Assembly (NCBI RefSeq): GCF_009914755.1
Contig: NC_060928.1
DNA: 64,000 bases
Reading direction: 5' to 3' (one strand)
Source: the human T2T-CHM13v2.0 reference genome, Homo sapiens
This document shows, in pieces, positions 41,501-46,793 of the stretch. How positions within the stretch are numbered: position 1 is the first letter of the stretch; each line of letters begins with the position of its first letter. A program made the position numbers and the translations under genes. The notes under the pieces are model-generated. The model was not told where the DNA came from. It searched no databases and was given only the letters and a program-made list of their open reading frames with translations.

Positions 41501-43845
41501 AAACAAACACCTTTTTGGCATTTTTTACTGCTACATCTTTAGTGTCTAGGGCAGTGCCTGGCATATGTGTACAAGAAATTTTTGTTGAATTAATACATAC
41601 ATTAAAGTTTTCAGCCAAAGAAATTGAAAAATTGTTGGCAGCATGAAAAAAATGTTTAATTTCTTTTTGTTGTCCCTAAAATACCTCCGTCAACGCTGCT
41701 TCCAATTCTACATAAGGCCACCTTGTAATATTCTTTCCTCCCAGTTGTCTTCCCCCACTTCTCTGCCCTGATACTGAAGAGTAGGAATTGTCACCTGGAC
41801 TCTGAGTCTATATGCAGAGATTAGATACCCCTCTGGGAGTACTAGAAATGCAGTATGTCAGGTGAATTTTAGCGAAGCCTGAATTGCTAACCCTCTGGGT
41901 TCCCCAACCCCTCTAAGCTTTACAACTGCTGAGGATTCAGCCCTAGAGCAGCACAGAAGACACCTCTGTGGGGTGCATGGGACTGAAAAAGGATGGGTAA
42001 GTTATTAGGAGCACCTTGCTAGAAGCACCTATGTCAAGTCTTTTAATAAGTATTTAATTAACTGACTACAGAGTTAAGGGACAACATTGAGGCAGAGAAT
42101 ATGGATTTTTTTTTTTTTTTTGGTGCCACTTACACTTGACTCCTGAATTGGAAGAGCCCAAGGAAAGGAAATAATAAAAATTCTTACACTGTGGATCCTC
42201 GCAGGTTGTAGAGGAATTTTGCCATTGTTGTGTAAGTAGCAGTAAACGGTCACAGGACTAGCAGACATTCAACAAAGCTGTCCTTTATTATCATACTGAC
42301 TTCTGAGACTAAATCCCTCCTAATGCACCACAGCAGGATCTCCAAGGAACAAAGACACTAACATTAAATTTCAGTATCTTTTGGCCCAGATGATGGCCAT
42401 TTAAGCCAAGTTTCCCTTTCCATAACAAATCCTAATCTTGTGTCCCTATTCATTTTAAAATACATATATTTATAAACCCAAAGAGTTTGTATGCAGAGAT
42501 TAGATACCCCTTTGGGAGTACTAGAGGGGTACTTCTAATCTTCTGCTCAAGCTAGTTTGTAGTCAGTAGCTGACATTCCCCCTCGGCATTGTCTGAAAAT
42601 TGACAGCAGGAGCTCCTCAACGAAACCTTTTCACACACAATAGAAAGCCTTGAAGTCGGTGCGTGTCTGTGTCTGCTTTTTTCAAGAGGAACACAGCATG
42701 TTTGTAAACATGTGGCGTGGAAGGAAGATTTAGGATACAAGAGCAAGCCTGTGCCCCACTGATTTCCTGTTTGTTTCTCACATTATGTTACCCCTGGCAA
42801 CTAATGTGGGAAATACACTGAGAGAACAGCACTCCTTTTCCTTATTGTAAGTCCAAATTTGGCAAATAAAAGAAAATAAAACCTTTTAGCTGTTTTCTTA
42901 ATTGTGGAAAGTTTTTATATTCCTGTTTTATTTTTTACTCCAATTCTCTCCTTTTGCTTTCAGAAATAGAGAAAAAGAGATAGAGAAAGAGGAGTGGGAG
43001 AGAAAGAGTTTGCTTCAGTGATTTGATCTGCTAAAACCATATGGCACTGAGAACTAGAAGAGAAACTATTGAATAAAAATTATGCAATACTTATAGACAC
43101 AATAAATAAGTTTCACTTTCATATCACAAAATAAATAGCACACTTGCATAGATTAATGAATGTATCCTAGGTGATGTTTATTTACCATATAAACAGAAAA
43201 AAAATCACGTGAATTTGTTCATTCATTCATTCATTCATTCAGCATTTGCTTCACAGGAAGCACTATGTTGGACATGTGCATTCCTCTTTTATCCCCTTTG
43301 CAGTAGAGTTTAACCAACATGGAAACAGAACATTGGAAAGTGAGGATACTTGCCCTTGGCCACAGTCTGGTAGATTCAGGACCTGGTCTGTTTGATTCCT
43401 AAGCTGGTGGCATCCCTACACTATTATGTCCCTCCACATTGATGATCCTAGTGTCTGAGGTAGAGCAGAGATGAAAGGACGTGGGTTTTGAGAGGAATAA
43501 ACCAAAATAAGAAAATTATCACTGAGAAAATTGAGCAATTAGTACTTACCTGTCTTGTTCACTGTCCTTTAATGAGCAACAAGCCCCCCCAAAAAAGTCA
43601 GAGAATGAGGCTAATGATGACCTTTTAGACTCTAGAACATATATTAGTGTAAAATGAAAAGGATATTTAGAAAGAAATAGTAATCTGATTCATTTTTGTG
43701 TTTATATTTACATCACACAAAATAATGAGCAAAACCCTTTGGGAGTAGTAATTTTCAGACTACTATATTATTAAACATTTTATATTTTCCATCTCATGGA
43801 AGACATTATTTACTAAATGGCAAGCAAAAAGATTTTTATCTATAT

Positions 43846-44854
43846 TGTTGCGGGAAGTCAGGGACCCCAAAAGGAGGGACCGGCTGGAGCTGCAGCAGAA
43901 GAACATAAATTCTGAATATTTCATGGACATTTATCACTTCCCTAATAATACTCTTATAATTTCTTACGCCTGTCTTACTTTAATCTCTTAATCCTTTTAT
44001 CTTCATAAGCTGAGGATGTACGTCACCTCAGGACCCTGGGATGATTGCATTAACTGTACAAATTGATTGTAAAACATGTGTGTTTGAACAATATGAAATC
44101 AGTGCACCTTGAAAATGAAGAGAATGACAGCAATTTTAGGGAATAAGGGAAGACAACCATAAAGTCTGAGTGCCTGCAGGGTCGGGCAAAAAGAGCCATA
44201 TTTTTCTTCTTGCAGAGAGCCTATAAATGGATGCACAAGTAGGAGAGATATCGCTAAATTCTTTTCCTAGCAAGGAATATAATATTAAGACCTTAGGGAA
44301 AGAATTGCATTCCTCAGGGGAGGTCTATAAATGGCCGCTCTGGGAGTGTCTGTCCTATGTAGTTGAGATAAGGACTGAGATATGCCCTGGTCTCCTGCAG
44401 TACCCTCAGGCTTACTAGGGTGGGGAAAAGACCCCGTCCTTATAAATTTGAGGTCAGACCCGTTCTCTGCTCTCGAACCCTGCTTTCTGTTAAGATGTTT
44501 ATCAAGACAATACGTGCACAGCTGAACATAGACCCTTATCAGGAGTTTCTGATTTTGCCCTGGTCCTGTTTCCTCAGAAGCATGTGATCTTTGTTCTCCT
44601 TTTTGCCCTTTGAAGCATGCGATCTTTGGGACCTACTCCCTGTTCTTGCACTCCCTCCCCTTTTGAAATCCTTAATAAAAACTTGCTGGTTTTGCCACTC
44701 AGGTGGGCATCACAGACCTACCGATATGTGATGTCACCCCCAGCAGCCCAGCTGTAAAATTCCTCTCTTTGTACTCTTTCTCTTTATTTCTCAGATCTGC
44801 CAACACTTAGGGAAAATAGAAAGAACCTACGTTGAAATATTGGGGGTGGGTTCC
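43846..44854 (+). mobile_element. MER11 LTR (HERV-K11/HML-8), nearly complete but lacking the last few U5 bases
   Basis: Starts tgttgcgggaagtcagggacccc. TATA-like tataaa at ~44441, AATAAA at 44674. Ends aagaacctacgttgaaatattgggggtgggttcc without the expected terminal bases. Confidence 0.9.
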
Positions 44855-44870
44855 ACTAGCCCATGCAGCA

Positions 44871-45303
<433 letters not shown>

Positions 45304-45317
45304 TAGTTTTTGAAACT

Positions 45318-46414
45318 ACTGGGGCAGGCGGGCTTTATTCTGGGTGCTGGAGAGCTGTGGGCCCCACTCCTCCCGTAGAATGCCACCAGGGTGAGGGGCT
45401 GGGCCTCGGCAGGGGTGAGTGCTCAGAGCAGGAAGGGGATGATGGGCATGCGCAGGGGCGGGTAGTCCCAGAACTCCTTTAGGGAGCTGTGGTGCTTGCC
45501 CTTGGCCTAGATCGTCATCTGGGTAAAGCCCACCAGGGAGAACAGGGCCACTGGGAGACACTGTGTCATGATGGCAAAACTGATCCAGGACCCCATCTGG
45601 TAGGTGTAGTTGGGGCAGGACACCAGCAGGAAAAGCCACGTGAAAGGGTTCTTGGTGAGGTATGGGATCTTCTGGGTGTTGGACTCAGCGGGCCGCCGGT
45701 CCCACAGGGCCATGTGGATGGAGAAGTTGCCAAGCACAGGCAGATCACAAAGATGGCGAGTGCCAGTTTCACCTGCTGAGCTCTGTAAGTAGGGGGTGTG
45801 TAGAGAGGGTGGTTGATGTAATAGGCCATCCACCCAGTGAAGCCCCAGGAGTAGGTGCAGTTCTTGAAGATGTTGCGCAAGGCATGGTACCATGGGAGAA
45901 GTGGTGCATGAACAACGTCTCCAGCAGGTGCTTGACGTAGTGCAATGAGTGACAGATGCAGGTGAGGTGCACCACCATGTGCCGACTGGATGTGAAGTCA
46001 TATTTGTTGCCATAGATGAAGGGCACTCAGAAGTAGAAGAGCAGGTAGATGAAAAGAGGCCCCCCGTACTCTGTTAGGAAGACCGTCACCCAGCTGATCT
46101 GGGCCCCCACATCCTGGAAGTAGAGTGTGGCCATGGCGCCCACGGGCATCTTCTGCAGAACATCTTCATCATTCAGGGACTTGCCCTTGGGGTCCAGGCG
46201 GAGGGACTGGTGGGCAGGGTACCACTGCAGAGGGGTCTTGGTGAAGAGGTTCTTGATCTCTGCAGTGGTGGTGTGGGGCTCCACCTTGTCCAGGAAACAC
46301 AGCTTCTCCCCTGTCTTTGCGTGCAGAATCTCCACCTCTTAGTGCTTCATGGCTGTCTCCCACGGCGGCTACTGCTCCATGGCTGCTGCTGCCTAACTGC
46401 GCGGCACAGCACAG
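45318..46414 (-). pseudogene. TECR: Processed pseudogene of trans-2,3-enoyl-CoA reductase TECR; former CDS 46350..45423 plus UTRs
   Basis: Intronless: MKH*EVEILHAKTGEKLCFLDKVEPH...LFIYLLFYF*VPFIYG...NIFKNCTYSWGF...LVSCPNYTY...MPIIPFLL*. Stops at 46339-41, 46027-29 and 45507-09, plus frameshifts. AATAAA at 45334-45339 (-). The symbol names the parent gene. Confidence 0.96.
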
Positions 46415-46450
46415 GGTCCCGCCGTTCGGGGTCCCTGACTTCCCGCAACA
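46415..46450 (-). mobile_element. Inverted 36-bp copy of the MER11 LTR 5' (U3) terminus
   Basis: Reverse complement tgttgcgggaagtcagggaccccgaacggcgggacc matches 43846-43881 at 33/36 positions. Confidence 0.95.
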
Positions 46451-46701
46451 CTATATACCAAGTGGCATTATGTGATCTTCTTCATAGAGGTCCCAAAACA
46501 TATTGCCTTGTATATTTGGCCTTTTGATAGTTTACTTGTACTTTCTTAATTTTTTTTTTGCCGTCTCAGGATTAACTTTATACTCAGAAAAATGCTCAAA
46601 ATTTCTCACTATTGTAGACAAACATTTAAACATTTTATTATTTAATTGACCATTTACTCCTTAACCTCAGCTGTAGATAATGCCTTTGAAAACACTTAAA
46701 T

Positions 46702-46793
46702 TTGGGGGGCTTACTTAACACTAGAATTCACTGAGCTTAAAAAAAAATTGGGGGGCTTACTTAACACTAGAATTCACTGAGCTTAAAAAAAAA
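46702..46793. repeat. Perfect 46-bp tandem duplication
   Basis: ttggggggcttacttaacactagaattcactgagcttaaaaaaaaa occurs at 46702-46747 and 46748-46793. Confidence 0.96.

What the first reader, a model, noticed from the sequence alone, without database searches (positions are those of the whole stretch)
46351..46450. LTR U3 start is fused in sense directly to the TECR 5' UTR
On the minus strand, 36 nt of U3 run straight into ctgtgctgtgccgcgcagttaggcagcagcagcc, about 64 nt upstream of the TECR ATG. The U3 5' end is where PPT-primed plus-strand synthesis begins. Inference: either TECR cDNA reached the mRNA cap and jumped onto U3, or a short PPT-primed strand jumped onto TECR cDNA. Either would be a fossil strand-transfer junction.
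Basis: partly seen in the sequence, partly recalled or inferred. Interest (0 to 1): 0.7.

Follow-up and report, generated by a model that had tools for sequence, protein, structure and literature searches.

The report
Retrovirus-made pseudogene with two identical ends
A dead copy of the human TECR gene sits in a 2.6-kb block that has the same end of an ancient retrovirus at both edges, facing inward, with a 6-base duplication outside, so it was likely copied and pasted by that virus's own enzymes rather than by LINE-1, the usual maker of gene copies.

Summary
The junction is real, but it is one end of a larger object. Window 43846-46450 holds a MER11 (HERV-K HML-8) LTR on +, a short spacer, three Alu pieces in alternating orientation, a spliced TECR cDNA on -, and the 36-nt U3 tip on -. 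The block starts and ends with the U3 terminus in inverted orientation and is flanked by an exact 6-bp direct repeat, the family's target-site duplication length. The LTR has no such repeat at its own U5 end. TECRP2 has no L1-type duplication and no clean poly(A). The U3/TECR join has 6-of-7-nt microhomology. LTR and TECR parts are equally diverged (about 3% non-CpG). Best reading (0.7): one retroviral reverse-transcription product, built by template switches onto co-packaged Alu and TECR RNA and integrated through two U3 ends. Main rival (0.2): L1 inserted TECR into an existing U3-U3 element. A second U3-U3 insertion (41 bp, chrX) and eight other short-U3-tip fusions turned up among 1,225 tips. 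ERV-made retrocopies are known; TECRP2 is not among three listed human cases, and my searches found no two-U3 architecture in print. The orthologous empty site and TECR start sites were not testable.

The parts
43840..43845 (.). Left copy of the 6-bp target-site duplication
   Evidence: Exact direct repeat with 46451-46456; only k=6 matches among k=3-12
43846..44857 (+). MER11 (HML-8) LTR, U3-R-U5, lacking about the last 4 nt of U5; its U3 start is the left integration end
   Evidence: 86-91% identity to 39 other LTR copies; end compared with six relatives; no TSD match within 12 nt of its U5 end. U3/R/U5 labels are from general knowledge.
44858..44870 (.). Short spacer of unknown origin
   Evidence: A 20-nt pattern over it has no other genomic match at <=1 mismatch; no tRNA gene or Rfam hit above threshold
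44871..45056 (-). Alu piece 1 (about Alu positions 1-181), running to the last base of the Alu 5' end; no tail
   Evidence: Conservation among 58 Alus ends at the base equivalent to 45056; ruler alignment
45050..45146 (+). Alu piece 2 (about positions 86-183), likely a fold-back copy of piece 1; 7-nt overlap 45050-45056; ends where piece 1 begins
   Evidence: 89 of 97 identical to piece 1 against a maximum of 89.8% (mean 83%) for 46 Alus of the TECR locus; shared 7-A linker seen in 1 of 30 linkers
45146..45285 (-). Alu piece 3 (right arm), starting exactly at the body/poly(A) boundary; no tail
   Evidence: 9 of 9 reference Alus turn to A-tail at the base after 45147
45277..45317 (.). AT-rich linker: 30-nt palindrome around a TA run plus 11 nt; either a decayed poly(A) tail or another fold-back
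   Evidence: Self-inverted match 28 of 30; longest A run 5 against 23 in the control retrocopy L034
45318..46414 (-). TECRP2: spliced TECR cDNA (13 exon blocks), ending 3 nt before the poly(A) site; stop at codon 4
   Evidence: 1,124 aligned nt, 85 mismatches, 30 of CpG type; poly(A) site from L034; translation
46415..46421 (-). Microhomology shared by U3 positions 30-36 and the TECR 5' UTR (6 of 7 nt)
46415..46450 (-). 36-nt U3 tip, inverted relative to the LTR; the right integration end
46451..46456 (.). Right copy of the 6-bp target-site duplication
   Evidence: the flank beyond is single-copy

Best explanation
The block 43846-46450 has a U3 terminus at each edge in inverted orientation and an exact 6-bp duplication outside, and it is likely one DNA molecule that HERV-K(HML-8) reverse transcriptase built by template switching onto co-packaged cellular RNAs and that the viral integrase then likely inserted using two U3 ends. 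Inferred steps: (1) a plus-strand LTR copy (U3-R-U5) failed to make its normal transfer and became joined to Alu cDNA; (2) RT ran off the Alu 5' end, folded back through 7 nt, then jumped to an Alu 3' end and on to the 3' end of TECR mRNA; (3) near the TECR 5' end the cDNA 3' end annealed over 6-7 nt to a short PPT-primed U3 strand (or to its own U3 start) and both strands were extended; (4) the result had an integrase-competent U3 end on both sides. Shown: the anatomy, the duplication, the microhomologies, equal divergence. Inferred: the enzymes, the order, and that all parts arrived in one event. The copy is dead (stop at codon 4).
For: Exact 6-bp direct repeat abutting both termini, p about 5e-4. 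Family TSD is 6 bp: of 17 LTR loci, 14 had a located 3' end, 7 of these had an exact 6-bp repeat, 2 had one mismatch, none was longer. The window LTR has none at its U5 end, which is truncated. No L1-type repeat of 7 nt or more around TECRP2; longest A run 5 against 23 in control retrocopy L034. Microhomology 6/7, null 0.6%. Private non-CpG divergence: LTR 2.8-3.5% (15 triplets), TECRP2 16 of 484 = 3.3%. All three Alu pieces lack tails and two break exactly at RNA landmarks. A second U3-U3 insertion with an exact 6-bp repeat at G000:C23:65041331. Short U3 tips fused in sense to downstream viral sequence recur in the family, matching premature second-strand transfer described for HIV-1 (PMC12657518, section 10 read). 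Multi-RNA captures including an Alu exist in mouse (PMC5131818, section 6).
Against: The empty site in an outgroup was not seen, so the TSD rests on sequence alone. The TA run next to the TECR 3' end could be a decayed poly(A) tail in an A-rich Alu linker, which would suit L1. The Alu fold-back junction is not diagnostic of retroviral RT: 4 other loci carry it and none has this LTR within about 400 nt. Dating resolution is low, and the TECRP2 figure is an upper bound because the outgroup L034 is young. The Alu divergence estimate was dropped as biased. Alu RNA is packaged poorly by HIV-1 (PMC2175372, passages). The tip and its own LTR differ at 3 of 36 sites with no shared private change, so they are not shown to come from one template.
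Confidence: 0.7

Rival explanations
1. Two steps: HML-8 integrase first inserted a U3-U3 element (LTR, Alu patchwork or later Alus, longer inverted LTR part); L1 machinery later inserted TECR mRNA at the A-rich Alu linker and deleted the target up to U3 position 36.
For: TECR 3' end lies beside an A/TA-rich Alu linker; the copy is nearly full length; short microhomology at 5' junctions and target deletions are known for L1 insertions (recalled); L1 makes nearly all human retrocopies (PMC5131818).
Against: No poly(A) run over 5 nt and the match stops 3 nt before the poly(A) site; it needs a rare U3-U3 precursor plus a second rare event within 2.5 kb; the breakpoint falls in the same 23-38-nt range as other U3-tip fusions (but the search could only see junctions at about 21-45); equal divergence.
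Confidence: 0.2
2. The 6-bp repeat is chance or was made later: a solo LTR, Alus and an L1-made TECR copy were rearranged by inversion, fold-back repair or deletion between inverted repeats, which copied the left LTR end to the right side.
For: The inverted repeat extends 4 of 5 nt into the flanks because the 6-mer is partly palindromic; inverted Alus and LTRs are unstable (recalled).
Against: The flank matches 6 of 6 in direct orientation but 4 of 6 in inverted orientation and nothing beyond (flanks); the chrX element repeats the same U3-U3 plus 6-bp layout (14 specified bases, about 2e-6 by chance).
Confidence: 0.07
3. A chimeric transcript starting in an LTR and reading into TECR was retrotransposed by L1, or an LTR fragment is native to the TECR promoter.
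For: The tip is in sense with TECR.
Against: No such LTR piece in 50 kb of the parent locus; a transcript would not normally begin at the first base of U3 (general knowledge); the 6-bp repeat and the distant inverted partner stay unexplained.
Confidence: 0.03

Closest known systems
LTR-mediated retrocopies: FAM8A1 copies captured by HERV-K14 and the cases in Tan et al. 2016 (PMC5131818)
   Same: Spliced mRNA fused to LTR-element sequence through microhomology, no L1 hallmarks, several RNAs including an Alu in one product (mouse 'Super').
   Different: There the mRNA replaces internal viral sequence between two LTRs in normal order. Here there is no internal viral sequence, one LTR and one inverted 36-nt U3 tip, the mRNA is antisense to the LTR, and both integration ends are U3. 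Table S8 lists three human cases with parents on chr6, chr6 and chr5; TECR (chr19) is absent.
Premature second-strand transfer products in HIV-1 (PMC12657518) and asymmetric-LTR proviruses (PMC9278108)
   Same: A short plus strand from U3 is joined to downstream sequence, leaving a truncated 5' LTR; the two HML-8 proviruses on chr2 with 33- and 38-nt tips look like this.
   Different: The acceptor here is a cellular cDNA and the product ends in a second, inverted U3 rather than U5. The passages read did not describe that.
Unintegrated retroviral DNA with LTR-associated cell-derived inserts (Dunn, Olsen, Swanstrom 1992)
   Same: By title, cellular sequence joined to LTRs during reverse transcription (title seen in a reference list).
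   Different: Text not held, so I cannot say whether two-U3 products were described; those DNAs were unintegrated.
L1-made processed pseudogenes (control: TECR retrocopy L034, chr4:90.28 Mb)
   Same: Spliced TECR sequence.
   Different: L034 ends at the poly(A) site with a 23-A run; TECRP2 does not.

Membership tests
MER11 / HERV-K(HML-8) LTR | Sequence identity to the family's LTRs | tested here: met
   86-91% to 39 genomic copies. No repeat library here; the name is tied in through relatives that match published HML8 loci by chromosome, strand and size (2q11.2, 2q14.2, 1p13.3, 4p16.3). Subtype A/B/C not assigned.
Retroviral integrase product | Family-length target-site duplication abutting both ends | tested here: met
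   Exact 6 bp; family 6 bp in 7 of 14 located ends
Retroviral integrase product | TG...CA termini | tested here: met
   Both ends are the U3 terminus
Retroviral integrase product | Empty orthologous site with one copy of the 6-mer | not testable with these tools
   No primate relatives held; right flank is single-copy
Canonical provirus or solo LTR | U3 end at one side and U5 end at the other | tested here: not met
   U5 end truncated and internal, no TSD there
LTR-mediated retrocopy (Tan 2016 type) | Microhomology at switch points | tested here: met
   6/7 at U3-TECR, 7 nt at Alu fold-back; LTR/spacer and TECR 3' joins unresolved
LTR-mediated retrocopy (Tan 2016 type) | mRNA replaces internal sequence between 5' and 3' LTR parts in normal order | tested here: not met
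   LTR and tip are inverted; no internal viral sequence seen in the block
LTR-mediated retrocopy (Tan 2016 type) | No L1 hallmarks | tested here: inconclusive
   No L1-type TSD, no long poly(A), but a TA run that could be a decayed tail
L1-mediated processed pseudogene | Introns absent | tested here: met
   13 exon blocks joined
L1-mediated processed pseudogene | 7-20-bp TSD flanking the copy | tested here: not met
L1-mediated processed pseudogene | Poly(A) tail at the cleavage site | tested here: inconclusive
   Ends 3 nt early, longest A run 5, TA run follows
Cap-terminated cDNA jump | Junction coincides with a TECR start site | not testable with these tools
   No CAGE data; microhomology starts at a pyrimidine-purine step in the parent, which fits but does not show a start site

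The most novel reading that the evidence does not exclude
TECRP2 is a human processed pseudogene made entirely by an endogenous retrovirus by an undescribed route: a cellular cDNA closed off by two inverted U3 ends and integrated without any U5 end, PBS or viral internal sequence. With the chrX element it marks a small hidden class of U3-U3 germline insertions that pipelines for both L1 retrocopies and LTR-flanked retrocopies would misfile.
Probability: 0.55. Interest if true: 0.75.

Novelty: new variant of a known kind. Interest (0 to 1): 0.62.

Why it matters
Human retrocopies are nearly all credited to L1; one survey lists only three LTR-mediated cases. This would add one with a different architecture and give a germline fossil showing that a betaretrovirus-like integrase can use two U3 ends in vivo, and that RT in a particle can chain Alu RNA and an mRNA through several switches. 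It also gives a simple search rule (inverted U3 termini plus family-length TSD) for finding more ERV-made gene copies in any genome. No function is implied: the TECR frame is dead.

Tried and rejected
L1-type TSD around TECRP2: none of 7 nt or more. Native LTR piece at parent TECR: none. Alu pieces from TECR introns: best identities 88-91%, no better than unrelated Alus, so rejected as source. Source of the spacer: not found. Paralogous empty site: right flank unique. Alu dating by triplets: discarded, because the comparison Alus were chosen as best hits. Alu fold-back junction as proof of retroviral RT: rejected, 4 other loci without this LTR nearby. C11:97579918 as a U3-U3 element: false positive, an ordinary LTR. 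Inverted pairs among listed tips: none within 20 kb among the first 100 of 372 or first 100 of 1,225, judged by eye; the rest were not listed. Clustering of tip junctions at 23-38 nt is not claimed, because the patterns could only see that range. Two older papers could not be read.

Full report
Observation. The minus strand at 46450-46415 carries 36 nt of LTR start followed directly by TECR 5' UTR. A genome search with 46250-46450 split it cleanly: query 1-36 hits LTR starts at 97%, query 31-117 hits TECR exon 1 at G000:C19:14656355. TECR-only sequence begins at 46414, 64 nt before the ATG. The LTR's own U3 positions 30-36 and the parent TECR sequence share 6 of 7 nt in register with the junction; 0.6% of 5,796 control window pairs do as well. 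Fifty kb of the parent locus hold no LTR piece of this family.

The larger object. The tip is the inverted partner of the start of a full LTR on + at 43846. The 6 bases before 43846 and the 6 bases after 46450 are identical in direct orientation; no other length from 3 to 12 matches, and random 6-mers from the flanks match at 5e-4. Among 17 other LTR loci, 14 had a located 3' end; 7 had an exact 6-bp repeat, 2 had one mismatch, 1 had two, 2 looked like 5' LTRs and 2 had none; none was longer than 6. The window LTR has no such repeat at its own U5 end, which stops about 4 nt short of the family end. So the duplication brackets the whole block 43846-46450, and both integration ends are U3. The family name MER11/HML-8 is recalled, and supported by relatives that match published HML8 loci in chromosome, strand and size (PMC10194239, passages including Table 1). 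Reported ages for the group are 23.5-52 My (bioRxiv 10.1101/2022.02.10.479833, passages).

Inside the block. After the LTR come about 13 unassigned nt (no second genomic match), then three Alu pieces without tails. Piece 1 (minus) runs to the last base of the Alu 5' end, judged from 58 Alus, and overlaps piece 2 (plus) by 7 nt. Piece 2 is 89 of 97 identical to piece 1, above all 46 TECR-locus Alus compared (maximum 89.8%), shares a 7-A linker seen in 1 of 30 linkers and ends where piece 1 begins: likely a fold-back copy. Piece 3 (minus) starts at the Alu body/poly(A) boundary (9 of 9 references). An AT-rich palindromic linker follows, then TECR cDNA: 13 exon blocks, 85 mismatches in 1,124 nt, 30 of CpG type, stop at codon 4. 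It ends 3 nt before the poly(A) site shown by the control retrocopy L034, and its longest A run is 5 against 23. No L1-type repeat flanks it. Private non-CpG divergence is 2.8-3.5% for the LTR (6 closest of 17 loci, 15 triplets) and 3.3% for TECRP2 (16 of 484 sites, an upper bound), compatible with one event but of low resolution.

Is it alone? A 20-nt U3-start pattern has 1,225 matches. Two patterns for tips that stop matching at about position 39-45 flagged 31 and 38 places, 53 in union. I fetched 13 of the 53, plus one; the window's own and one seen make 15 examined; the other 38 looked like small indel variants from the printed 44-45 nt and were not fetched. Ten are real short-tip fusions: this one; chrX:65041331, a 41-bp element with 33 nt of U3, 8 nt of inverted U3 and an exact 6-bp repeat; four mini-LTRs with TSDs (chr4:8.43, chr5:78.86, chr11:9.65 exact; chr20:52.96 5 of 6); one internal LTR deletion (chr6:69.56); two proviruses whose 5' LTR is a 33- or 38-nt tip (chr2, TSD 5 of 6); and one unresolved (chr12:6.39, no partner in 5 kb). 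One more (chr5:134.79) has a 20-nt tip 89 nt before an LTR and was left unclassified. Later genomic deletion could explain the mini-LTRs; it does not easily explain inverted U3 ends at a TSD.

Mechanism. The plus strand reads sense LTR, then antisense Alu and antisense TECR, then antisense U3 tip: what one expects if a plus-strand LTR copy was joined to cDNA of cellular RNAs and the far end then annealed over 6-7 nt to a short U3 strand, both strands being extended. That leaves a U3 end on each side for integrase. These steps are inferred. Premature second-strand transfer, which leaves truncated 5' LTRs, is documented in HIV-1 (PMC12657518, passages and section 10). Packaged 7SL RNA is reverse-transcribed in HIV-1, though Alu RNA is packaged at least 50-fold less well (PMC2175372, passages). 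Against: no outgroup empty site; the TA run may be a decayed tail in an L1-friendly Alu linker; the same Alu junction occurs at 4 other loci without this LTR nearby. I put the single retroviral event at 0.7 and a later L1 insertion into a U3-U3 element at 0.2.

Known or new. LTR-mediated retroposition is known; Tan et al. list three human cases, none from chr19 (PMC5131818: passages, section 6, rows of Table S8; its Dataset 1, figures and methods files could not be read). Their cases keep LTRs in normal order; this one does not. Searches for TECRP2 or TECR with retrocopy terms gave no listed paper naming it (15 of 298 and 8 of 8 listed), and searches for two-U3 or inverted-U3 proviruses gave nothing relevant (one search listed only in-vitro integration papers, not read). 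The library lacks most subscription and older papers; Dunn 1992 was seen by title only, and the solo-LTR supplement of PMC10194239 was not read, so prior description is not excluded. PMC9278108 and PMC3187697 were seen as passages. Verdict: real, larger than reported, a new variant of a known kind.

Noticed in passing
L054 72-112 (G000:C23:65041331-65041371): 41-bp element: 33 nt of U3, 8 nt of inverted U3, exact 6-bp flanking repeat; a second U3-U3 insertion.
   Followed up: partly
L065, L055, L053, L061 (chr4:8.43, chr11:9.65, chr20:52.96, chr5:78.86 Mb): Mini-LTRs of about 23-241 bp: a U3 tip joined to the U5 end or nearly nothing, with 6-bp repeats.
   Followed up: partly
L052+L066 and L060+L067 (chr2:100.82 and 119.81 Mb): Truncated HML-8 proviruses whose 5' LTR is only a 38- or 33-nt U3 tip, with 5-of-6 flanking repeats; they look like premature second-strand transfer products.
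   Followed up: partly
L062+L068 (chr12:6.39 Mb): 30-nt U3 tip followed by non-LTR sequence; no partner end within 5 kb.
   Followed up: partly
L004-L020 LTR 3' ends: This family's U5 end reads ...ATA rather than ...CA in every located copy, while U3 is canonical; this might make U3 the better integrase substrate (speculation).
   Followed up: no
L034 (chr4:90.28 Mb): Young 5'-truncated TECR retrocopy with a clean poly(A); the sequence 5' of the match looks like a retained splice-acceptor region.
   Followed up: no
L069-L072: Four other loci share the same Alu head-to-internal inversion junction; three look like 5'-inverted Alus, one like a head-to-head pair with a deletion.
   Followed up: partly
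window 46698-46789: 46-nt tandem duplication (98% identical) 250 nt right of the element.
   Followed up: no
window 44281-44481: The RefSeq silencer in the task's table lies inside the LTR.
   Followed up: no
window 41804-41846 and 42483-42525: 43-nt direct repeat, 93% identical, 679 nt apart.
   Followed up: no
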